From the NCBI GenBank assembly GCA_044361155.1, contig JBIKJF010000011.1:69-64068 (forward strand): a DNA stretch of 64,000 bases, written 5' to 3'. The position numbers and the translations under genes were made by a program. Every line of letters starts with the position of its first letter. The stretch's first letter is position 1. Below the pieces are notes generated by a model. It made no database searches and was not told the DNA's origin. It worked only from the letters and a program-made list of their open reading frames with translations. Below are positions 55,211-64,000 of the stretch, one piece after another. The DNA is from Flavobacterium sp. (lineage in GTDB: Bacteria; Bacteroidota; Bacteroidia; Flavobacteriales; Flavobacteriaceae).

Positions 55211-56119
55211 TTGCTTGCAAACACCAATGAAAATAAAGCGATAACATATGACCTTAAAAACAATAAATATTTACATATGAAAGCTACATTAGAGAACATC
55301 CCATCAGAAAAAGGAACTTCAAGTTTTTATGCTTATCGTTTTCAGGTTCCCTTTTTTGAATTCAAATGGCATTATCACCCAGAATTTGAGTTGACTTACA
55401 TTGTTAAGGGAAGTGGCTACAGAATTGTTGGGAACTCTTATGAATATTTTAGCAATGGTGATTTAGTTTTGTTGGGAAGCAATTTGCCGCATACTTGGTC
55501 TGGTAAATTAGAGGATGACGTAAAATCGGATGCAATTGTAATTCAGTTTTCTAAGGAATTTATAGCACCATTCTTAGAACTAAATGAAAGTGTATTAATT
55601 AAGGACATGTTGCAACATTCTGAAAGAGGAATAAGTTTTGAGATTGATGAAGCGTTAGTTTCAAAAATTATTGATTTAACCGAAGCTAAAGGAGTGGATA
55701 GGGTATTAAAGTTGATTTCGATTTTGGATGTACTGTCTAAAAAGCAAGCAAGGTTGATTGCACCAAATGCTTTTCATAATGTTGTATCTAAAAAAAATGA
55801 GCTACGGATTAATAAAGTTTGTTCGTTTATACAAAACAACTTCTATAATAAAATCTCTCTAAAACAAGCAGCAGACTTAATTTATTTGACGGAAAGTAAC
55901 TTCTGTAAATTTTTCAAAAAGGCCACAGGAAAAACCTATTCTGATTATTTAAATGAGTTAAGAATAAACGAAGCTTGCCGAATGTTAATCCAATCAGAAA
56001 AAACGATTAGTCAAATATCTTTTGAATGTGGTTTTGAAACGCTTAGTTATTTTAACAGAGTTTTTTTCAATAAAAAAGGAATGACACCTTCTACATTTAA
56101 AAAAGAAAATCTAATTTGA
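55211..56119 (+). CDS. AraC family regulator with cupin sensor (start probably ATG 55277)
   Basis: WHYHPEFEL, LPHTW, FCKFFKKATG...LRINEACRML, CGFETLSYFNRVF; divergent from the sugar operon. Confidence 0.92.
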   Translation: MLANTNENKAITYDLKNNKYLHMKATLENIPSEKGTSSFYAYRFQVPFFEFKWHYHPEFELTYIVKGSGYRIVGNSYEYFSNGDLVLLGSNLPHTWSGKLEDDVKSDAIVIQFSKEFIAPFLELNESVLIKDMLQHSERGISFEIDEALVSKIIDLTEAKGVDRVLKLISILDVLSKKQARLIAPNAFHNVVSKKNELRINKVCSFIQNNFYNKISLKQAADLIYLTESNFCKFFKKATGKTYSDYLNELRINEACRMLIQSEKTISQISFECGFETLSYFNRVFFNKKGMTPSTFKKENLI

Positions 56120-56155
56120 TATTCGGATAATACAATTCAACTATTTAGAAGTTCA

Positions 56156-56503
56156 ACGTTGGCTGAGGCTCTCGAAACCAATGTGGGGATTAACTACGTT
56201 GTTCCCATATAGGGAATCCTGGGCAAAAGAAAACTTTACTGATTATTGCTATAATCAATAGTTTTTTGTTCATCACGTTGGCTGAGGCTCTCGAAGCCAA
56301 TGTGGGATTAACTACGTTGTTCCCATATAGGGAATCCTGGGCAAAAGAAAACCTAAATGATTATTTGCATAATCATTTGTTTTATACTTCACGTTGGTTG
56401 AAGCTCTCGAAGTCAATGTTGGGATTAACTTCGTTGTTCCCAGATAGGGAATCCTGGGCAAAAGAAAACCTAAATGATTATTTGCATAATCATTTGTTTT
56501 TTT
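56156..56503. repeat. Three tandem ~117-bp structured repeats
   Basis: Units start at 56156, 56275 and 56391; each has TTGG-CTGAGGCTCTCGAAG-CCAA-like, TTCCC-A.ATA-GGGAA and GATTAT-TTGC/TGCT-ATAATC hairpins plus a T-rich tail. Confidence 0.92.
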
Positions 56504-56560
56504 ATTTCAAAAAAACGACTTTCAAAAGCAAAGCTTTTGAGCCATTTTTTTGTAATAAAA

Positions 56561-56587
56561 AAACCGATTAGCTATGCTAATCGGTTT
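56561..56587 (-). terminator. Intrinsic terminator downstream of the tRNA 3' fragment
   Basis: Perfect AAACCGATTAGC-TAT-GCTAATCGGTTT, followed by a T run on the minus strand. Confidence 0.85.
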
Positions 56588-56592
56588 TCTTT

Positions 56593-56610
56593 TGCGGAGA
56601 AAGAGGGATT
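56593..56610 (-). other. att core: duplicated 3' end of a tRNA-Ser-like gene
   Basis: Minus strand AATCCCTCTTTCTCCGCA equals the T-arm 3' half, acceptor strand and G73 discriminator; the T-loop is broken (GGTT-AATCCC instead of GGTTCGAATCCC) and the rest of the tRNA is absent. Confidence 0.8.
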
Positions 56611-56666
56611 AACCTCGTGCCTTTATATTGCTGATATACAATGTAGTATATTTTGTTTTTAATTCA

Positions 56667-56687
56667 AGTACCCCTAATAGTACCCCT
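56667..56687 (+). promoter_or_regulatory. Direct repeats, candidate integrase arm-type sites
   Basis: AGTACCCCT at 56667-56675 and 56679-56687, about 60 bp inside the att. Confidence 0.45.
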
Positions 56688-56839
56688 CTAAATTATTGTG
56701 GTTTATCATCTATGTTGATACTTCAAATTTACAAAAAATACTTCAATTTAAATTCCGTTTTGTGATTAAAATTTGAATTGGTAGTTATTTATTTTACAGA
56801 CAAGTAAAGTTTGTTTTTTGAACAAGTAAACTTTAAAAA

Positions 56840-57043
56840 CTAACCAATAATAAGACGCTCAACTTGTTCATATTTTAAGCTAGTGTATTGGCAGAACTCC
56901 TCGATGCTCACAAGTTCATTTTGGAGCTTATTGAGGTCCTTTCTGATATTTTGCAACATTCGTATGCTTTGCCTGTAACTCTTCCCTGTAATACGTTGTA
57001 TGTCCTTTGGGTAGATACACAATCTCTTATTTTCAATTTTCAT
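56840..57043 (-). CDS. Small basic HTH protein, excisionase/RDF-like
   Basis: 67 aa, IYPKDIQRITGKSYRQSIRMLQNIRK (MerR/Xis-like HTH); first gene inside the att. Confidence 0.6.
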   Translation of the reverse strand: MKIENKRLCIYPKDIQRITGKSYRQSIRMLQNIRKDLNKLQNELVSIEEFCQYTSLKYEQVERLIIG

Positions 57044-57206
57044 ACACTATCTATAGCTTTAACTAGGCTTTGACTTACATGAAAGCCGTATAATCCAATT
57101 TTTTGAACAGGATAAAATTAGTAAAAAATCTATTTTGTTTAGAAGCTGCAATTTACTTTTAATTTTTAGGTTCAAAAACGTGTATTTATGTCGATTTCTG
57201 CCATTT

Positions 57207-57223
57207 ATGTCACAAAGTGACAT
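57207..57223. promoter_or_regulatory. Operator-like palindrome in divergent intergenic region
   Basis: ATGTCAC-AAA-GTGACAT. Confidence 0.45.
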
Positions 57224-57355
57224 ATTGTATTGGTGCTACTTTTTTAATCGGTTTAATTGACTAAAATTTGTTTTTGAAATCAATCGATGGATGTTGCAAC
57301 AGAATGATGATTGAGGGAAATGATCACTGATTTTAATAATTAAAATTTTGAAGTT

Positions 57356-58114
57356 ATGGCTAGACAGAAAGGCATAATTAAACTAAAAGGTACTATCGGA
57401 GATATTACTTTTTACAAAACGCAAGATGGACACTTAGCAAGAGAAAAAGGCGGAATTGACGCTAGTAGAATTGCCAGTGACCCTGCGTTTCAAAGAACGC
57501 GTGAAAATGGTTCGGAGTTTGGCAGAGCTGGCAAAGCCGGAAAGGTTTTGAGAACGGCATTAAGAGCATTGCTTTTAAATTCTGCTGATGGTAGAATGGT
57601 TAGTCGTTTGACGCAAGCGATGGTAAAGGTTATTCAAGCGGATTTGGTGAGCGACAGAGGCTTGCGTAACGTGATTGATGGTGAAGCGGAATTGCTTACG
57701 GGATTCGAGTTTAACATTCGTGGTAAATTAGGAACTAGTTTATTCGCTCCTTTTGTTGCAACAATTGACCGTGTTGCTGGAGAAATAAGTGTTGATTTGG
57801 CTTCGTTTATTCCAGTTAATATGATTGCAGCTCCATCAGGAACTACTCATTTTAAAATTATTTCTGCTGGTGCTGAAATTGATTTTGAAGCTGAAACGTT
57901 TGTCGAAACGCATTCAGAAACTGCCATTTTACCATGGGATGCCACTGCAACTGCTGTGATAAGCCAAGTAAATGCAGTTACGCCTGCGAGTACAAAACCA
58001 TTGTTTTTGGCATTAGGTGTTGAATTTTATCAGCAAGTAAATGGAACTATGTACCCGCTTAAAAATGGTGCTTTCAACCCGTTATCGGTTGTGAAAGTAG
58101 ATAGCGGTGTGTAA
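57356..58114 (+). CDS. Hypothetical 252-aa protein (basic N-terminal arm, beta-rich C-terminal half); possible virion structural protein
   Basis: MARQKGIIKLKGTIGDITFYK...; no signal peptide; TAATG-coupled to DUF5675. Confidence 0.8.
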   Translation: MARQKGIIKLKGTIGDITFYKTQDGHLAREKGGIDASRIASDPAFQRTRENGSEFGRAGKAGKVLRTALRALLLNSADGRMVSRLTQAMVKVIQADLVSDRGLRNVIDGEAELLTGFEFNIRGKLGTSLFAPFVATIDRVAGEISVDLASFIPVNMIAAPSGTTHFKIISAGAEIDFEAETFVETHSETAILPWDATATAVISQVNAVTPASTKPLFLALGVEFYQQVNGTMYPLKNGAFNPLSVVKVDSGV

Positions 58115-58509
58115 TGGTTCTTGAATTGACCAGAACTTATTTCCCTAACGGAACTAACGGAAAACTCGAATGTAAAGGAAAATCGATTTGTAATACAATT
58201 GAGTTACCATGGAGAGAAAATGAAACGAGAGTTTCCTGCATTCCGGAAGGGAAATATTTTATTAAAAAACGATACAGCCAAAAATTTCAATGGCATTTGG
58301 AGGTTTTGGATGTGAAAAACAGAAGTCTAATTCTGTTTCATCCAGCCAATAATGCTTTGCAAGAATTGAACGGTTGTATTGCTCCAGTAACTAAACTTTC
58401 TGGACCAGGATTAGGGTTGATGTCCCGAAAAGCTTTTATAAGTTTAAAATCGATGGTTTATAAAGCTTTGGACAAAAAAGAAAGTGTTGAATTGATTGTG
58501 AAATCTTAA
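58114..58509 (+). CDS. DUF5675 family protein (L,D-transpeptidase-like His/Cys peptidoglycan enzyme, putative endolysin)
   Basis: TNGKL...CNTIELPW...SCIPEGKY, ILFHPANN...GCI; no signal peptide. Confidence 0.8.
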   Translation: MVLELTRTYFPNGTNGKLECKGKSICNTIELPWRENETRVSCIPEGKYFIKKRYSQKFQWHLEVLDVKNRSLILFHPANNALQELNGCIAPVTKLSGPGLGLMSRKAFISLKSMVYKALDKKESVELIVKS

Positions 58510-58521
58510 ATAGTTATTTTT

Positions 58522-58773
58522 ATGAATATACTAGAAAGAGCGAAAGCTCCAACTCCGAAATTTTTTAAGATTTTGAGAAGTATTGGATTGGCATTATTGG
58601 GTATTAGTGGTTCAATAGTAGCTGCTCCAGTTGTTTTACCTGCAGCAGTAGTTACTGCAGCAGGTTATGTAGCTGTTGCAGGTGGTGTAATTTCTGCAAT
58701 TAGCCAAATAACTGTTGATGATAAAGCCAAGAAAGAAATTGAGAACCTCAGCAAAGCGCGTGATGGAAACTAA
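58522..58773 (+). CDS. Small membrane protein, holin-like
   Basis: 83 aa, long Ala/Val/Gly hydrophobic stretch (about 2 TM), basic N-terminus, charged C-terminus. Confidence 0.6.
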   Translation: MNILERAKAPTPKFFKILRSIGLALLGISGSIVAAPVVLPAAVVTAAGYVAVAGGVISAISQITVDDKAKKEIENLSKARDGN

Positions 58774-58939
58774 TATTTCTTTAAAAGCTGGCACTGCATC
58801 AGGAACAGTATTGAGTATTTTACCCAATATTCTTTCTGAAGATATTGTAAAAACAATTATCTTAGCAGCGTTGGGAGCAACTGTTAGTTTTACGGTTTCG
58901 CTCTCATTAAAATGGTTGACAAAATCTAAAAATAAATAG
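58763..58939 (+). CDS. Small membrane protein, holin/antiholin-like (58 aa, ATG 58763)
   Basis: METNISLKAGTASGTVLSIL...IILAALGATVSFTVSLSLKWLTKSKNK; hydrophobic segments and basic tail. Confidence 0.55.
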   Translation: METNISLKAGTASGTVLSILPNILSEDIVKTIILAALGATVSFTVSLSLKWLTKSKNK

Positions 58940-58979
58940 TCCAGTTTTCGTGTGGTAACCTTTACTGGATTAACTTAAG

Positions 58980-59007
58980 AAGCCTAGTCGTTAGACCAGG
59001 CTTTTTT
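58980..59007 (+). terminator. Intrinsic terminator ending the four-gene operon
   Basis: AAGCCTAGTC-GTTA-GACCAGGCTT-TTTT; preceded by a second hairpin TAGTCCAGT...ACTGGATTA (58937-58972). Confidence 0.75.
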
Positions 59008-59429
59008 CATTTATTACAATAGCGGTATAAAATTACTCTTCGCATATCGTTTATGAGATTGATATTCTCATGAAACTGCTTTTCCTTTTGTTCTAGAAGC
59101 TTTAGTGCTGCAATATGCTTAACATGTTGCTCGTGCTCTTCCATCATGATTTTTGCTTTTGGAAAAAACTCTTTTTTGAAGTCTGGAAGACGTAAGAATG
59201 GAATTACGGAACCACAAAGAAATTGGTGCCAGAATTTTGTTTTCCATAAACTATAAGCAATGAAAAATAAACTTTCGCATTCATCCTCGTTTTGAAAAAT
59301 GATAACAAAACTGTTCGTAAATGGCTCTTTTTGTGGCTTTCCGCTGTTCATCCCTTTGTTAAGTACAAATAAATGAGGTCTTGAGTAAATCGTGTCTTTT
59401 CGGTGGGTTTTGATGATAAAATTCGGCAT
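59007..59429 (-). CDS. DUF6943-like protein
   Basis: FVLNKGMNSGKP...PFTNSF, LCGSVIPFLRL, C-terminal amphipathic helix. Confidence 0.7.
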   Translation of the reverse strand: MPNFIIKTHRKDTIYSRPHLFVLNKGMNSGKPQKEPFTNSFVIIFQNEDECESLFFIAYSLWKTKFWHQFLCGSVIPFLRLPDFKKEFFPKAKIMMEEHEQHVKHIAALKLLEQKEKQFHENINLINDMRRVILYRYCNK

Positions 59430-59569
59430 AACATTCGGCTTTAAAAATTGATTATATTTTCAATTTTCTGCGGATTTTCTCTTGAAATGCAGGTGTCTCT
59501 CGCTACGCTCGACCTATAAATTTTTCAAAAGAAAAAAAAGAAAAAAAGAAAGCCATTCGTTCAAGTGGA

Positions 59570-60689
59570 AGGTTTCAAAAAAGCAAGTTTTTTTGAAAAA
59601 ATACTACCCGAATGGGTGGAGATTTTTTCAAAAACCCGTAGGGCTTGAACTTGCTTTTTTGTAAACCTGGAACTTATCTTTGCTCTCTTTTTTTTTATTT
59701 TTTATTTTGATTTCATTTACTAAACATCATCGTATAATCTGAATTTGTTTGAAGGATTGGGTGTTGATGTGGAAGATGGTCGTCTTTGGAAGTGTATCAA
59801 TTTTTTGTAGATGGATGACTGAGTGTGATGAAAAAGAAAATGTGCTTTATCCATCTGAAAAATTGATACTCTTCCTTCTACAATTTGATTTTTGAGGATG
59901 CTTAAATAGTGTTCAGTTTTCAGGATTTAGTAATCAATCGGAATGTTGTTATGGAAATGGGAAGCATCTTCAAAAAACAATGCAAATACTTACCAAGTGC
60001 GTTGGCAGAAGCTCAGAGCAAGGGTATCATTTTTTTATTTGCTTATTGGGAGTTTCTGATTGCTTTTATTAATAGCTGATGCCACAAATAGTGTTCAGTT
60101 TACAGTTTTTAGTCTTCAGCATAAACTTGTTTAGTAACGTTATGGCATCAGCTATTGTGAAAGCAATTACCTCTGTGCGTTGTGGCAAATGAAAAATGAT
60201 ACTCTTGCTGGCTCTTTTGGTTTTGTGGGTGCCTGATTGATGTTCTGACGGAAGAAGTTATTGCCCAGAAAAAAGTTGTTATGAAAATGAAAAGGCACTT
60301 ACAAAAGCAATGAAAACACTACCGATTTAACAAGTTAGTTGCTAAAAACAGTTACCGTAAACGTTCTTGAAAGTAAGTATGACCGTAAAGTTTCCTATGA
60401 AATAGCGAACGTTGTTGAAGACAGTGGCGAAGGGTGGTTTTTTGAGTAGCCGGCTGGTGCGATGGAAGCTGCTCAAAAAGTTGCCCTAGAGCCACTGGCA
60501 AGCGCGTTGGGTGTGGCGGCTTTTTTACATAATGTTATTATAGTGCATCCTAATATTTCATTAGTAGCAGGGTGTTTCTTTATGCACTATAATGCCACAT
60601 TATGTAAAGAAGCTTGGGGAAAAAAATTACTGGCATGAGTCGCTTTGCGAACATGTTTTTGTTCCAAAAACCATGACAGTAATTTTTTT
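59570..60689 (+). other. Non-coding array of at least seven long imperfect hairpins (structured ncRNA or ssDNA element)
   Basis: Stems 59570-59668, 59788-59875, 59889-59976, 60017-60209 (nested 60059-60167), 60422-60497, 60519-60613, 60620-60689; no credible ORF. Confidence 0.8.
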
Positions 60690-60742
60690 GGAGCGTTGGC
60701 AAAGGAGTGGCATTTGAAAACTTAAAACGTAATTAAAAAAGA

Positions 60743-62341
60743 TTATTTTCTATGCCTTTTATTTATAAGTTTTTGTCTAATATTTTCTATTTTATCAATC
60801 TCCTCAACTGTTAAACCAAGTGTTCCGTTAAGTATTTGATAGTTATATTTATTTAGAATATCTTTTATAGAAGTCTTATTTTTAAATTCTGAGATATATT
60901 CTTCAAAGTTATTGCAATTGGTATAAGGAATTGGTAGTACTCTCAATTCATTTGGTGTCAATTCTAAAACTCCACCTCCATAATATCTTCCTTCTAATTC
61001 TGCAAAAGCTAATGTTAGTGAATTATAAAAAGAAAAAATAAAATTATTTAATTCAAAGCCTTCTTTAATTTCAATTTTGTATGCGCTGTCAGTAACAAGA
61101 ACATCTGCATCATTTCTTAAAAGTTTAGGATATTCATGTGCTCTCTTAAAAAAGAAAGCTTCAGGAATTGTAGCTATGTTTGGCACCTTGTACCATCTTT
61201 CCCTTTGTTTGCATTTGAACCTTGAAGGTAATTCCAATTGATTACCAATATTAAAATATTCGTTCATTTCAGGAGTAATTTCATTATCAATTAAAGAATT
61301 GAAATCAAGCAAATATGTTGGTTTACGCTCTTCAACTAATGTATCAAAATCTTTTTTATTGAATGTAACCGAACCGTTTACGAAGAATCCTTTTTGAACA
61401 ATTGGTTTAGCAAAATTTTGAAAATTATATGCTTGAACAACATCATTATTTACTATGAAATAATTGTTGGCAGCAGTAACTATTCCCGCTTTATTATTAA
61501 TGAAATGTGTAACATTTTGTATGCGCAGTTTTAAGTTTTCTAGAAACTCATATTCTTCGGGTGTTATAAAATGATGTGACCACTTCCTGTCTGAATTAGC
61601 AAGTGCGGTATTTTCATAAAACTCATAATTATCATTTTCTAAATCGTCTAATGCATTAATATTAGTATAGAATGTTCCTTGATTTTCATGTGCTTTATAT
61701 CCAATTAATAAAACCGTATCTTGTCCTTTACATTCCTGGAATTGAAGTTCATTAAAAGTAAAAATTTCTATTCTTTGAAATTCATTTATTAATAACGATC
61801 TTATTTCTTCAGTAAATTTGACTTGCAATAATTCTAATGGTAATATCATCGCCAAAATACCATTATCTTGTAGTTTAGTAATTCCGCTTATTAAAAAAGA
61901 TGTCCAAATATTATTAATACTTCTATCTGATAAATATTTTTCAGAATGAATCCTTTTTGCTAACTCTTTCTGCTCCTCTGACAAATGATTTTTTTTAACA
62001 TAAGGAGGATTTCCGATAATAAGTGAGTAGCGATTTTGGTCGTTGAAATGGAAATTTAAGTAATCTAAATTATTTGGAATTAAATTAATTTTTTGATTTA
62101 TTTCAAGATCAATTACTTTTTGTAATTCGTCATTTTCTTTTTCTACAACTGTATTGTTAATCGTTTCAAATCTTTCAAGTTCTTGACTTTTTGATATTGC
62201 ATTGATAAAAGCACCATCCCCAACACTTGGTTCAAGTATAGATATAGTTTGTTGATTGTCTATCTTGGATAAACAATAATCTGCCACAAAATCTGCTAAT
62301 CTTGTAGGTGTATAATAAGAACCTAACTTTTTTTTATTCAT
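60743..62341 (-). CDS. Gamma-class N6-adenine DNA methyltransferase (Eco57I/TaqI-like)
   Basis: LGSYYTP, motif I ILEPSVGDGAF, motif IV IIGNPPYV, C-terminal AELEGRYYGGGVLELTPNE. Confidence 0.92.
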   Translation of the reverse strand: MNKKKLGSYYTPTRLADFVADYCLSKIDNQQTISILEPSVGDGAFINAISKSQELERFETINNTVVEKENDELQKVIDLEINQKINLIPNNLDYLNFHFNDQNRYSLIIGNPPYVKKNHLSEEQKELAKRIHSEKYLSDRSINNIWTSFLISGITKLQDNGILAMILPLELLQVKFTEEIRSLLINEFQRIEIFTFNELQFQECKGQDTVLLIGYKAHENQGTFYTNINALDDLENDNYEFYENTALANSDRKWSHHFITPEEYEFLENLKLRIQNVTHFINNKAGIVTAANNYFIVNNDVVQAYNFQNFAKPIVQKGFFVNGSVTFNKKDFDTLVEERKPTYLLDFNSLIDNEITPEMNEYFNIGNQLELPSRFKCKQRERWYKVPNIATIPEAFFFKRAHEYPKLLRNDADVLVTDSAYKIEIKEGFELNNFIFSFYNSLTLAFAELEGRYYGGGVLELTPNELRVLPIPYTNCNNFEEYISEFKNKTSIKDILNKYNYQILNGTLGLTVEEIDKIENIRQKLINKRHRK

Positions 62342-62967
62342 TATCTTCTAATTTCTTTCAACTTATAAGGTCTTATTTTTTTTCTTTTTTCGGTTATATC
62401 ACTTAACTTTGAGAAAGCATCAATTAGATTTAATATAGATTGCTTATCTGCTAAAATTAAATCCAGTTTACCTAATTTTTCAAGGTCTTTTCTAACCGCT
62501 AAAGCTCTTTCATTTAATAATTGTTCCCTTCTTTCATATATAAGTTGTGCTCTATTTAAAAATAATCGTTGAGTAATATAACTGCTACTTATATAATTAC
62601 CTGCAAGTTTGTATGTTTTTGTATCTAGCGTAAATAATGTTGAATAGTCATATATTGATGGATCTGGATAGCAACATATATTTAAACTATATGCATCATT
62701 TGGCCAATCATCACTTTTAAATCTATTGCAAATAGGACATGCATAGAATAAATTTAAAATATTATTTTCTAAATGCTGAAATCGCGCAAACGACTTTGGT
62801 TTATAATGTTCAATATGGTAGTGGTCAATACCACCAAATTGTGTTTCATTTATCGAACAATAAACGCATTGATAAAAACATTCCTCTGCAATCTGCTCTT
62901 TCCAGTCAGAATAAATACCAGTTGTAGGTTGTTTGGCAGGATTTTTAATTATTAATTTCCAATTCAA
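62341..62967 (-). CDS. Zn-finger HNH endonuclease
   Basis: QCVYC, HIEHYKPKS, NLFYACPICNRFKS. Confidence 0.9.
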   Translation of the reverse strand: MNWKLIIKNPAKQPTTGIYSDWKEQIAEECFYQCVYCSINETQFGGIDHYHIEHYKPKSFARFQHLENNILNLFYACPICNRFKSDDWPNDAYSLNICCYPDPSIYDYSTLFTLDTKTYKLAGNYISSSYITQRLFLNRAQLIYERREQLLNERALAVRKDLEKLGKLDLILADKQSILNLIDAFSKLSDITEKRKKIRPYKLKEIRR

Positions 62968-63680
62968 TTTTGATTCAATTTTGATTGTAATTCAGTTTTA
63001 AGTTTTTCTAATTCCAATATTGTATTTTCATATTGGTCTAGCCATTCTTGCCTATCATTAAGTGTAGTGTCTAGCGGTAAATGCAATTTAGTTTGTAATG
63101 CTAACAAGCTATCATATTCATCTTGACTGTATTCACCAGACGCTACTTTTTCAGATAGTTTTTGAAACTCTTGTAATTCAATTTTATTCTCATCCAAATA
63201 CCTCTGTGTAGCTCTAATGATTCTATTAACATATTTATCTCCTTCATTTATGAATTCTTGTCTTTCTATTATATCTTCAAATTCACTGAATTTTGCAGTC
63301 AATTCATCGTCACCTTTATTAGATGTTATTACATAAATTGGAATGTCTTTAAAACGTTCACGAATTACTGAAACCAATTGGTCTCCTCTATAATTAACGG
63401 GTCCAATTCCCTTTTCAGTTTCATTATTCATCCTCTCGTCAAAAATCAAACATACAATGTTTTCATCTTTTATCCATTGGAAATATTCCTGAAATGTTTC
63501 AGTAACAAATGGGAAAATATCAATTATTTCAAAAGTTGAATCATTATTTTCTAAATAAGCTCCAAGAGAAAGTCTTAAGGTTTCTCTTTGGTCAAAATTA
63601 TCATCAATAATTCCAATTTTGTATATTTTGACAGTTTCTAGATTTTCAGTACCCTCGTTTTTAATATCAATTTTACTCAT
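62964..63680 (-). CDS. Response-regulator receiver protein with helical tail (no HTH)
   Basis: IGIIDD (D26-D27), LIFDERM (D81), IYVITS (T119/S120); R140 at the usual Lys position. Confidence 0.75.
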   Translation of the reverse strand: MSKIDIKNEGTENLETVKIYKIGIIDDNFDQRETLRLSLGAYLENNDSTFEIIDIFPFVTETFQEYFQWIKDENIVCLIFDERMNNETEKGIGPVNYRGDQLVSVIRERFKDIPIYVITSNKGDDELTAKFSEFEDIIERQEFINEGDKYVNRIIRATQRYLDENKIELQEFQKLSEKVASGEYSQDEYDSLLALQTKLHLPLDTTLNDRQEWLDQYENTILELEKLKTELQSKLNQN

Positions 63681-63683
63681 AAT

Positions 63684-64000
63684 TTATTTCTTTTCTAGTG
63701 GTAACCAAACTTTAAATCGTGCTCCTTTTAAAGTAGGATCAATATCAAAAGACACTTTTCCCTTTAAATCCCTTACAATTGAACTAACAACAGTCAACCC
63801 TAGTCCAGTTCCAATACTATTACTACCTTGTGTAGGATTTATTTTTGTAGAAAACAAAGGTTCAAAAACACGATGACTAAATTCCTTTGATACACCTGGA
63901 CCAGAATCTGATACAATTATTGAATACCCTTGTAATTCTGTTTTTTTATTGATTTTAGCATCTTCTCTTGTGAGCGAAACAATAATTTTTCTTTCGCCTC
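63684..64000 (-). CDS. Histidine kinase / HATPase_c, C-terminal part (runs off window end)
   Basis: Manual translation ...IIVSDSGPGVSKEFSHRVFEPLFSTK...GTGLGLTVVSSIVRDLKGKV...GARFKVWLPLEKK*, giving the G1, F and G2 boxes. Confidence 0.9.
   Translation of the reverse strand, partial: GERKIIVSLTREDAKINKKTELQGYSIIVSDSGPGVSKEFSHRVFEPLFSTKINPTQGSNSIGTGLGLTVVSSIVRDLKGKVSFDIDPTLKGARFKVWLPLEKK

What the first reader, a model, noticed from the sequence alone, without database searches (positions are those of the whole stretch)
60743..64000. Phosphorelay-gated restriction-like system: histidine kinase, receiver, HNH nuclease, adenine MTase
Seen: four minus-strand genes are translationally coupled (3-nt gap, 4-nt overlap, 1-nt overlap). 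The kinase keeps the G1/F/G2 boxes. The receiver keeps D26-D27, D81 and T/S, has Arg for Lys, and ends in a helical tail with no DNA-binding HTH. The Zn-finger HNH and gamma-class MTase have intact motifs. The operon is cargo of a tRNA-integrated island. Known: ordinary type II R-M systems have no two-component genes; GHKL/MORC-kinase fusions with receivers have been noted computationally near R-M genes, but I know of no characterised system with this composition. Inference: an anti-phage system in which a sensed cue drives Asp phosphorylation that switches the nuclease post-translationally, with the MTase marking self.
Basis: partly seen in the sequence, partly recalled or inferred. Interest (0 to 1): 0.82.

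Follow-up and report, generated by a model that had tools for sequence, protein, structure and literature searches.

The report
Ambrosia-like two-component restriction defence
Four tightly packed genes (a MORC-type histidine kinase, a stand-alone receiver protein, an HNH nuclease and an adenine DNA methylase) are a freshwater Flavobacterium version of 'Ambrosia', a phage-defence system validated in Pseudomonas in a 2025 preprint, so the locus is real and widespread but is no longer an unknown kind of system.

Summary
The four minus-strand genes and their junctions (3-nt gap, 4-nt and 1-nt overlaps) are as described, and all the catalytic motifs are intact. The kinase runs off the window. An identical metagenome contig gives its full 780 aa: an N-terminal MORC/Hsp90-type GHKL ATPase, a coiled coil, and a HisKA-type kinase core.

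The same four genes, in the same order, occur in all 24 Bacteroidota genomes found through the receiver. They also occur on Bacillus, Salipiger and Bacteroides plasmids.

Three of the four proteins are homologous to AbrB, AbrC and AbrD of Ambrosia (van den Berg et al., bioRxiv 2025), a five-gene Pseudomonas anti-phage system in which receiver D60A abolishes defence. D60 aligns with D81 here.

Differences from Ambrosia:
- The methylase is a non-orthologous Eco57I-like enzyme placed last in the operon.
- There is no XRE regulator, although sister loci have one.
- The phylum is different.

The receiver model shows only a helical tail, with no HTH. This favours protein-level gating of the nuclease over the transcriptional model proposed in the preprint, but it does not prove it.

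No tRNA or integrase is found in the window, so the 'tRNA-integrated island' claim is unsupported.

Verdict: a new variant of a known kind, of moderate interest.

The parts
63684..64000 (-). C-terminal 104 aa (catalytic ATP-binding domain, G1/F/G2 boxes) of an AbrB-like histidine kinase. The gene continues beyond the window end. The full 780-aa protein is L001:7655-9997: MORC/Hsp90-type GHKL + middle domain, coiled coil, H-box H552-E553, HATPase_c.
   Evidence: The window is identical to L001 over 11,037 nt. The PDB profile search matches ZraS/HK853 at 1e-29. Foldseek gives Hsp90 N+M for the N-half and HK853/CpxA for the C-half. 35% identity to the Ambrosia AbrB N-terminal 400 aa.
62964..63680 (-). 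Stand-alone receiver protein (AbrC-like, 238 aa): REC domain (about residues 21-140; D26, D27, D81, T119, R140) plus a conserved three-helix tail (140-237).
   Evidence: The profile finds 431 clusters, and the 150 best are all ~215-225 aa with a full-length match.
62341..62967 (-). PtuB/AbrD-like zinc-finger HNH nuclease (208 aa, TTG start) with a helical C-terminal half.
   Evidence: PADLOC PtuB 3.2e-18. Pfam HNH. Invariant C34 C37 H54 N72 C77 C80 N81 K84. Best solved relatives are retron I-A/Septu PtuB. 26% identity to AbrD, E 9e-16.
60743..62341 (-). Gamma-class N6-adenine DNA methyltransferase of the Eco57I-like family, with a C-terminal target-recognition domain (532 aa). It is not orthologous to Ambrosia AbrA.
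   Evidence: Pfam Eco57I 2.3e-15 and M_Eco57I_C 7.2e-33. PADLOC MTase_II 1.2e-131. M.BseCI is the best solved relative. 36-45% identical over the full length to the MTases of the Bacillus and B. finegoldii cassettes, 30% to Salipiger; no BLAST hit to AbrA.
60620..60689 (.). 18-nt inverted repeat (94% complementary, 34-nt loop, flanked by A/T runs) 54 nt after the MTase stop. It may be the end of the operon.
   Evidence: (I13) and the sequence. The simple terminator scan did not call it, so this part is tentative.

Best explanation
The locus is a Bacteroidota variant of the Ambrosia family: a restriction-modification-like anti-phage system whose nuclease is controlled by a private two-component phosphorelay.

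Shown by homology and sequence:
- A soluble kinase that joins a MORC/Hsp90-type GHKL ATPase to a canonical DHp + catalytic kinase core.
- A stand-alone receiver with a complete phospho-acceptor pocket and a conserved helical tail.
- A PtuB-type HNH nuclease.
- A sequence-specific m6A methylase.
- All four are inherited together as a mobile cassette.

Shown experimentally only for the Pseudomonas homologue (preprint): defence against phages needs the kinase's N-terminal ATPase, the receiver Asp, the HNH His and the methylase.

Inferred for this locus:
1. The N-terminal ATPase module engages DNA or an infection cue.
2. This drives autophosphorylation on H552 and transfer to D81.
3. The phosphorylated receiver then licenses the HNH nuclease through protein-protein contacts of its helical tail, rather than by binding DNA.
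4. The methylase, which has its own recognition domain, sets the DNA mark that the system reads.

The XRE regulator found in Ambrosia and in sister Bacteroidota loci is dispensable in this lineage.
For: - Homology to Ambrosia (sequences from Table S1 of the preprint): AbrB 35% identity over 401 aa (E 2e-62), AbrC 27% over 172 aa (E 7e-13, D60 aligns with D81), AbrD 26% over 191 aa (E 9e-16).
- Ambrosia genetics: N40A (AbrB), D60A (AbrC), H60A (AbrD) and T72A (AbrA) abolish defence.
- Cassette conservation: kinase, receiver, HNH and MTase in the same order in 24 of 24 Bacteroidota loci. Pairwise distances of the four proteins correlate at r 0.80-0.96.
- The same order occurs on Bacillus, Salipiger and B. 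finegoldii plasmids. Deinococcus and Klebsiella carry the Ambrosia order.
- Effector swap: in Burkholderia and Hymenobacter an MBL-fold hydrolase follows the kinase and receiver in place of the HNH; the Burkholderia one matches MBL modules of known defence systems. This marks the kinase and receiver as the control module.
- Both ATPase sites, the H-box and the CA boxes are invariant across phyla.
- For protein-level output: no HTH in the receiver by Pfam or in the model (helices 140-181, 186-198, 209-237, no strands). The tail is conserved over its full length in 150 of the 150 best family members, with invariant polar residues. No XRE gene is present here. All four genes are translationally coupled.
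Against: - Nothing was measured for this locus. The only experiments are on a 26-35% identical system, in one preprint that has not been peer reviewed.
- That preprint reports infection-induced expression of reporters placed in the operon, and proposes transcriptional control through a wHTH in AbrC.
- No receiver-nuclease fusion (Rosetta stone) was found among the 150 best receiver relatives, so a direct contact is not supported by domain fusion.
- I could not co-fold the receiver with the HNH.
- The methylase is not orthologous to AbrA, so its role may differ.
- AbrA-methylated phage was still restricted by Ambrosia, which argues against a simple self-marking role.
- RNA runs from the same lakes hold none of the sequence, so there is no expression evidence.
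Confidence: 0.72

Rival explanations
1. Transcriptional model, as proposed for Ambrosia. The kinase senses infection, and the phosphorylated receiver switches on transcription of the operon (methylase and nuclease), which is otherwise almost silent. The nuclease needs no protein-level licence.
For: - Reporters replacing abrA or abrD are induced on infection, and D60A abolishes defence.
- An XRE/HTH_3 gene abuts the kinase in 9-11 of 24 Bacteroidota loci and in Deinococcus. This shows that transcriptional control is part of the family's repertoire.
Against: - This locus has no XRE gene.
- The receiver has no detectable DNA-binding domain: no Pfam HTH, and an all-helical coiled tail in the model.
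- Kinase, receiver and nuclease are translationally coupled in every variant. The receiver could therefore only autoinduce the whole operon, itself included.
- The induction seen in Ambrosia could equally come from AbrR.
Confidence: 0.25
2. Type IV-like logic. The HNH cuts DNA that the system's own methylase has marked. The system therefore has to be kept off until infection, and then acts on phage DNA (or on the host, as abortive infection).
For: - The preprint's suggestion: AbrD was placed with type IV HNH enzymes, and AbrA-methylated phage was not protected.
- A methylase accompanies the kinase and receiver in most variants seen, whatever its family: Eco57I-like, N6_Mtase, type I M-like, or dcm. 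It is missing next to the IS-disrupted Pseudanabaena copy.
Against: - The HNH here is PtuB-like and has no recognisable modification-reading domain.
- No host toxicity was seen in Ambrosia during defence.
- In this variant the methylase is co-translated with the nuclease, which looks like classical self-protection.
Confidence: 0.15
3. An ordinary type II R-M pair (HNH + gamma-class methylase) that merely lies next to an unrelated two-component system.
For: Automated tools would file it so. PADLOC/REBASE-derived models call the methylase MTase_II and the kinase N-terminus REase_II. DefenseFinder labelled AbrA and AbrB as type II R-M.
Against: - The four genes are coupled and co-inherited in 24 of 24 loci and across four phyla.
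- All Ambrosia genes are individually required.
- The kinase has no membrane or periplasmic sensor, and the receiver has no output domain.
Confidence: 0.03

Closest known systems
Ambrosia (AbrR-AbrA-AbrB-AbrC-AbrD), Pseudomonas aeruginosa; van den Berg et al., bioRxiv 10.1101/2025.09.30.679545
   Same: - The same four functions in one operon.
- Kinase, receiver and HNH are homologous (35%, 27% and 26% identity) and stand in the same relative order.
- The kinase has the same HATPase_c_3 + HATPase_c architecture.
- The phospho-acceptor Asp aligns.
- The HNH is PtuB-like in both.
   Different: - The methylase is a different N6A family (Eco57I + M_Eco57I_C, 532 aa, NPPY, against 448 aa and NPPF). 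It lies after the nuclease instead of before the kinase.
- No XRE gene.
- Bacteroidota rather than Gammaproteobacteria; the preprint's census found 537 instances, all gammaproteobacterial.
- I see no wHTH in the receiver tail.
Response_reg_2 / HEF_HK 'two-component-like' pairs next to R-M genes (Bellieny-Rabelo et al. 2021, PMC8011034)
   Same: A soluble HATPase_c_3 + DHp + HATPase_c kinase beside a small receiver-like protein, enriched next to type II R-M genes, some of them HNH.
   Different: - That family is defined by Pfam PF19192 and PF19191, which do not match these proteins or AbrC.
- Its usual partners are C5 methylases and Vsr.
- It was described computationally only.
paraMORC1 GHKL proteins in R-M operons (Iyer, Abhiman & Aravind 2008, PMC2292703)
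   Same: A GHKL + S5-type module with a conserved C-terminal extension, co-occurring with HNH endonucleases and methylases. It was proposed to manipulate DNA in the way MutL does.
   Different: The C-terminal extension was not recognised there as a histidine-kinase core, and no receiver was noted. I did not compare against their alignment.
Septu / retron I-A PtuA-PtuB
   Same: The nuclease belongs to the PtuB HNH family, which works docked on an ATPase partner.
   Different: There is no PtuA ABC-type ATPase. The ATPase here is a GHKL kinase, and a receiver and a methylase are added.
Detocs (DtcA kinase, DtcB buffer receiver, DtcC receiver-effector; Rousset et al., bioRxiv 10.1101/2023.01.24.525353)
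   Same: An anti-phage system built on a private His-Asp phosphorelay (from the paper's abstract and my own knowledge; listed).
   Different: From my own knowledge: Detocs has two receivers, its effector (usually a PNP ATP nucleosidase) is fused to a receiver, its kinase sensor is TPR-like, and it has no methylase. Here there is a single unfused receiver.

Membership tests
Ambrosia | AbrB-type kinase: N-terminal HATPase_c_3 plus C-terminal HATPase_c, homologous to AbrB | tested here: met
   Pfam 3.4e-25 and 5.8e-22. BLASTP 35% identity over 401 aa, E 2e-62, against the 400 residues of AbrB that are available.
Ambrosia | AbrC-type stand-alone receiver with a phospho-acceptor Asp | tested here: met
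   27% identity over 172 aa, E 7e-13. D60 aligns with D81. The REC fold is confirmed.
Ambrosia | AbrD-type (PtuB-like) HNH nuclease directly after the receiver | tested here: met
   26% identity over 191 aa, E 9e-16. PADLOC PtuB 3.2e-18. The catalytic His is aligned.
Ambrosia | N6-adenine methyltransferase homologous to AbrA, upstream of the kinase | tested here: not met
   An N6A methylase is present, but it has no BLAST similarity to AbrA, belongs to a different Pfam family, and lies at the 3' end of the operon.
Ambrosia | AbrR XRE-type regulator as the first gene | tested here: not met
   tblastn with the XRE of sister loci finds nothing in the window or L001. An XRE is present in 9-11 of 24 related Bacteroidota loci.
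Ambrosia | Protection against phage that depends on each gene | not testable with these tools
   Known only for the Pseudomonas system.
Response_reg_2 / HEF_HK two-component-like pairs | Receiver matches PF19192 and kinase matches PF19191 | tested here: not met
   Neither family appears at E <= 0.1 for the receiver or at E <= 1 for the kinase, nor for AbrC or distant family members.
Response_reg_2 / HEF_HK two-component-like pairs | HATPase_c_3 + DHp + HATPase_c soluble kinase adjacent to a small receiver and to R-M genes | tested here: met
paraMORC1 (Iyer 2008) | GHKL + S5-type middle domain with intact ATPase motifs and a C-terminal extension; HNH neighbour | tested here: inconclusive
   GHKL motifs are invariant. 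The N-half of the model aligns with Hsp90 N+M over ~480 columns, but at pLDDT 71 and TM ~0.3. It was not compared with the authors' family alignment.
Classical type II R-M | Methylase and endonuclease suffice; no further obligatory genes | tested here: not met
   Kinase and receiver are co-inherited in 24 of 24 loci and are required in Ambrosia.
Septu | PtuA ATPase partner of the PtuB nuclease | tested here: not met
   There is no PtuA-like protein. PADLOC finds nothing for the receiver and only REase_II/MzaB-type GHKL hits for the kinase.
Detocs | Two receivers, one fused to the effector | tested here: not met
   There is one receiver gene. All 150 best relatives are unfused, at ~220 aa. No PADLOC hit, though I do not know whether that library holds Detocs.

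The most novel reading that the evidence does not exclude
The family is a 'signal-transducing restriction enzyme'. A MutL/MORC-like ATPase clamp fused to a histidine kinase reads the state of DNA (unmethylated or invading) and converts it into Asp phosphorylation of a small adaptor. The helical tail of the adaptor then directly unlocks a PtuB-type nuclease. This would be phosphorelay control of DNA cleavage at the protein level, with no transcription factor involved. It would apply to the whole cross-phylum family, including the variants with an MBL-fold hydrolase in place of the HNH.
Probability: 0.35. Interest if true: 0.8.

Novelty: new variant of a known kind. Interest (0 to 1): 0.45.

Why it matters
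Ambrosia is so far known from one preprint and was thought to be confined to Gammaproteobacteria. This locus and its relatives show that the kinase-receiver-nuclease core is a mobile module found in at least five phyla, with at least 431 receiver clusters at 50% identity. The methylase and the nuclease are interchangeable, and the XRE regulator is optional.

The XRE-less, fully coupled variant found here is the natural test case for how a His-Asp phosphorelay controls a restriction nuclease: through transcription, or directly at the protein level. The second would be a new mode of regulation for restriction enzymes.

The locus also shows that PADLOC and DefenseFinder models file such loci as plain type II R-M, so their numbers are underestimated.

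Tried and rejected
- tRNA/integrase island: ARAGORN and Rfam (gathering threshold, and E-value mode on 55900-60800) found no tRNA. tblastn with integrase, RteC and HTH_17 from related elements found nothing in the window or L001.
- PF19191/PF19192 membership: no match.
- PADLOC on the kinase and receiver: no defence-system model for the receiver, and only REase_II/MzaB GHKL hits for the kinase.
- Rosetta-stone search for receiver-effector fusions with a profile against 1.84 billion representatives: none among the best 150.
- Viral contigs: no relative of the receiver.
- Promoter and terminator scans (sigma-70 consensus, and the Bacteroidetes TTTG...TAnnTTTG pattern): not above chance.
- Transcript evidence: metatranscriptomes of the same lake samples hold none of the sequence.
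- PADLOC and Pfam on ten neighbouring genes: only DUF5675 and DUF6943.
- The 1.3-kb gene-free stretch next to the methylase: no similarity to ORFs of related loci.
- DefensePredictor paper: its figure legend lists HATPase, REC and SKA1 domains in a predicted system, but the text gives no details. I kept it as a lead only.
- Co-folding the receiver with the HNH was not possible with the single-chain tool.
Full report
**1. What is in the sequence**

The minus strand of 60743-64000 carries four ORFs:
- a 532-aa methyltransferase (60743-62341);
- a 208-aa HNH protein with a TTG start (62341-62967);
- a 238-aa receiver-like protein (62964-63680);
- the last 104 codons of a kinase that runs off the window (63684-64000).

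The kinase stop is followed by 'att' and then the receiver ATG. The receiver stop and the HNH start share TTGA. The HNH stop and the MTase start share TAATG.

A metagenome contig (L001, ENA ERZ27272040) is identical to the window over 11,037 nt and extends it. It supplies the full 780-aa kinase.

**2. The four proteins**

*Kinase*
- Pfam finds a MORC-type HATPase_c_3 at residues 64-185 (3.4e-25) and HATPase_c at 654-778 (5.8e-22).
- The region between them is helical and holds an H-box, FGHETEG.
- In an alignment with homologues from five phyla, the following are invariant: the N-terminal ATPase motifs (N72, D97-G99-G101, K135-G136-G138), H552-E553, and the catalytic boxes N663/N667, D707-G709-G711 and G739-T740-G741-G743.
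- A profile of that alignment hits the DHp + CA cores of ZraS, HK853, FixL and CpxA at 1e-29 to 1e-19.
- The AlphaFold model has moderate confidence (pLDDT 71). Its C-half aligns with HK853/CpxA and its N-half aligns with Hsp90 N + middle domains over about 480 columns. This fits a GHKL + transducer module of the MutL/MORC/Hsp90 type.
- No Pfam membrane or periplasmic sensor domain is found, and the model shows no transmembrane-like segment.

*Receiver*
- Pfam Response_reg is sub-threshold (E 0.0088).
- D26 and D81 are invariant. D27, T119 and R140 are nearly invariant among 24 homologues, with Lys at 140 in a few.
- The model (pLDDT 77) matches receiver domains of PhoP, HupR, Spo0F and XynC at TM 0.70-0.77.
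- Residues 140-237 form three helices (140-181, 186-198, 209-237) with no strand.
- No HTH family is hit.
- The longest structural matches are to PorX, which also carries a helical bundle after its receiver.

*HNH*
- It has a CxxC...H...N...CxxCN zinc-finger ββα-Me core (C34, C37, H54, N72, C77, C80, N81, K84 invariant).
- It matches PADLOC PtuB at 3.2e-18.
- Its best solved relatives are retron I-A/Septu PtuB.

*Methylase*
- It is gamma-class (GSYYTP, EPSVGDG, NPPY in that order).
- It matches Pfam Eco57I and M_Eco57I_C and PADLOC MTase_II at 1.2e-131.
- M.BseCI is its nearest solved relative.

**3. It is one inherited unit**

- A scan of one genome per species, using a receiver profile, returned 24 loci. 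They come from Flavobacteriaceae, Chitinophagaceae, Cytophagales, Saprospirales, Sphingobacterium and Bacteroidales.
- Every locus has kinase, receiver, HNH and methylase in this order and tightly packed. Three are cut by contig ends.
- Pairwise distances of the four proteins across 20 complete loci correlate at r 0.80-0.96.
- The flanks differ between genomes, so the cassette moves as a block.
- A full HMMER pass over 1.84 billion representatives finds 431 receiver clusters at E <= 1e-3. The 150 best are all ~215-225 aa and match over their full length, so the helical tail is an integral part of the protein. No fusion to an effector is seen.

**4. Beyond Bacteroidota**

tblastn of the kinase against plasmids gave 103 records. 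The annotated contexts were:

| Organism / record | Gene order |
|---|---|
| Bacillus sp. AR4-2, Salipiger profundus, Bacteroides finegoldii | kinase, receiver, HNH, Eco57I-like MTase (the window's order; methylases 36%, 30% and 45% identical to ours over the full length) |
| Deinococcus gobiensis | HTH, Eco57I-type MTase, kinase, receiver, HNH |
| Klebsiella variicola | N6 MTase, kinase (fragmented), receiver, HNH |
| Burkholderia aenigmatica, Hymenobacter volaticus | MTase, kinase, receiver, then an MBL-fold hydrolase in place of the HNH |
| Pseudanabaena | kinase, receiver, IS-disrupted MBL-fold gene |
| Campylobacter plasmids | kinase, a 340-aa response regulator, and a dcm gene on the opposite strand |

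The Burkholderia MBL-fold hydrolase matches defence-associated MBL nucleases such as LmuA and DRT-linked MBL.

So the kinase and receiver are the constant control module, the nuclease is exchangeable, and a methylase of varying family is nearly always present.

**5. Prior art**

- Iyer et al. 2008 described paraMORC1 GHKL proteins with a C-terminal extension next to HNH genes in R-M operons.
- Bellieny-Rabelo et al. 2021 described HATPase_c_3-DHp-HATPase_c kinases paired with Response_reg_2 proteins next to R-M genes. Their Pfam families (PF19191, PF19192) do not match the proteins here.
- Van den Berg et al. (bioRxiv, 30 Sep 2025) validated 'Ambrosia' from P. aeruginosa. It consists of AbrR (XRE), AbrA (N6 MTase), AbrB (HATPase kinase), AbrC (REC) and AbrD (HNH), and it is active against sipho- and myophages. 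Point mutations in every gene abolish defence, including D60A in AbrC.
- Their Table S1 gives the sequences. By BLASTP, AbrB (first 400 aa) is 35% identical to our kinase (E 2e-62). AbrC is 27% identical to our receiver (E 7e-13), with D60 aligned to D81. AbrD is 26% identical to our HNH (E 9e-16). AbrA has no significant similarity to our methylase.
- I found no later paper on Ambrosia.

**6. How this locus differs from Ambrosia**

- The methylase is non-orthologous (Eco57I-like, with its own recognition domain) and lies last rather than first.
- The XRE gene is absent from the window and its close relatives. An HTH_3 gene abuts the kinase in 9-11 of the 24 Bacteroidota loci.
- The host phylum differs. 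The preprint's census found 537 instances, all in Gammaproteobacteria.
- The preprint attributes a wHTH to AbrC and proposes that the phosphorelay acts on transcription. Neither Pfam (on AbrC or on our receiver) nor the model shows a DNA-binding domain in this family's tail.

**7. Mechanism**

Shown by sequence or by homology:
- a complete His-Asp relay;
- two intact ATPase sites in the kinase;
- an intact metal-finger nuclease;
- an intact m6A methylase;
- a genetic requirement for each function in the homologue.

Inferred:
1. The MORC/MutL-like N-terminal module engages DNA or an infection cue. I draw an analogy with MutL, which activates the MutH nickase at Dam sites; this rests on established knowledge of MutHLS and on Iyer et al. 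2008.
2. This controls autophosphorylation at H552, followed by transfer to D81.
3. The phosphorylated receiver acts through its conserved helical tail on the nuclease.

I favour protein-level gating here for four reasons:
- There is no DNA-binding element in this variant.
- The nuclease is co-translated with its supposed regulators in every variant.
- PtuB-type nucleases are known to work docked on an ATPase partner.
- The effector can be swapped while the kinase and receiver stay.

The reporter induction seen in Ambrosia could also come from AbrR. It keeps the transcriptional model alive at about one chance in four.

The role of the methylase (self-protection, or marking for cleavage) is unresolved. 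The Ambrosia experiment with AbrA-methylated phage argues against simple protection. It was done with a non-orthologous enzyme, expressed alone.

**8. Context**

- The claim of a tRNA-integrated island is not supported. There is no tRNA in the window or in L001, and no integrase or RteC homologue.
- There is still evidence of mobility. Six small genes downstream of the methylase (DUF6943, two small proteins, DUF5675, a 252-aa protein and a 67-aa HTH-like protein; 56840-59429) are syntenic with the cassette in Lacinutrix, Corallibacter and Mesoflavibacter.
- In Mesoflavibacter the block is bounded by RteC and HTH_17 on one side and by a CTn-type tyrosine integrase on the other.
- In a Chitinophagaceae genome a tRNA-Ser and an integrase lie directly upstream of the kinase.
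- In L001, an AbiEi/AbiEii pair ends 60 nt before the kinase, with TPR-peptidase and CHAT-TPR genes further on. This is typical defence-island company.
- The sequence occurs in lake, river and wastewater metagenomes.

**9. Verdict**

The locus is a new variant of a known kind: different gene order, a different methylase family, no XRE and a new phylum. Its main value is as a natural test of whether the phosphorelay controls the nuclease directly. Interest 0.45.

Noticed in passing
window 56156-56502 (and 56600-56618): Three tandem copies of a ~117-nt unit (71-87% identical), plus a partial fourth. Each carries two short hairpins. They lie between the AraC-type gene and the variable region. They are not tRNA or any Rfam family.
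   Followed up: partly
window 59430-60742: A 1.3-kb stretch without any ORF of 60 aa or more between the DUF6943 gene and the methylase stop. It has several internal direct and inverted repeats and a G+C-richer patch around 60400-60640. It has no similarity to ORFs of related loci. Its nature is unexplained.
   Followed up: partly
window 56840-59429: Six small genes (67-aa HTH-like, 252 aa, DUF5675, 83 aa, 74 aa, DUF6943) keep their order next to the cassette in three other genera at 42-61% identity (DUF6943 in only one of them, at 37%). In Mesoflavibacter (L019) the block is bounded by RteC/HTH_17 and a tyrosine integrase. This is probably the backbone of a Bacteroidetes integrative element, here without its integrase.
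   Followed up: partly
L001:5998-7595 (just beyond the window end): An AbiEi/AbiEii toxin-antitoxin pair ends 60 nt upstream of the kinase start on the same strand. Four unknown genes, an M48-TPR peptidase and a 1234-aa CHAT-TPR protein follow. This looks like a defence island.
   Followed up: no
L040:6168-7190 (Campylobacter jejuni plasmid CP132133.1): The MORC-type kinase is followed by a 340-aa response regulator whose C-terminal ~220 residues match nothing in Pfam, PADLOC or the PDB. It lies next to a dcm methylase. It is a candidate receiver-effector fusion in a sister family, common on Campylobacter plasmids (41 records).
   Followed up: partly
L016:6027-7277: A HipA-like kinase gene lies directly upstream of the XRE-kinase-receiver-HNH-MTase block in Corallibacter.
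   Followed up: no
L024:6679-9986 and L035:4971-7241: The kinase gene is split or interrupted in an Aequorivita MAG and on a Klebsiella variicola plasmid, while the other genes stay intact. These are possible decaying or phase-variable copies.
   Followed up: no
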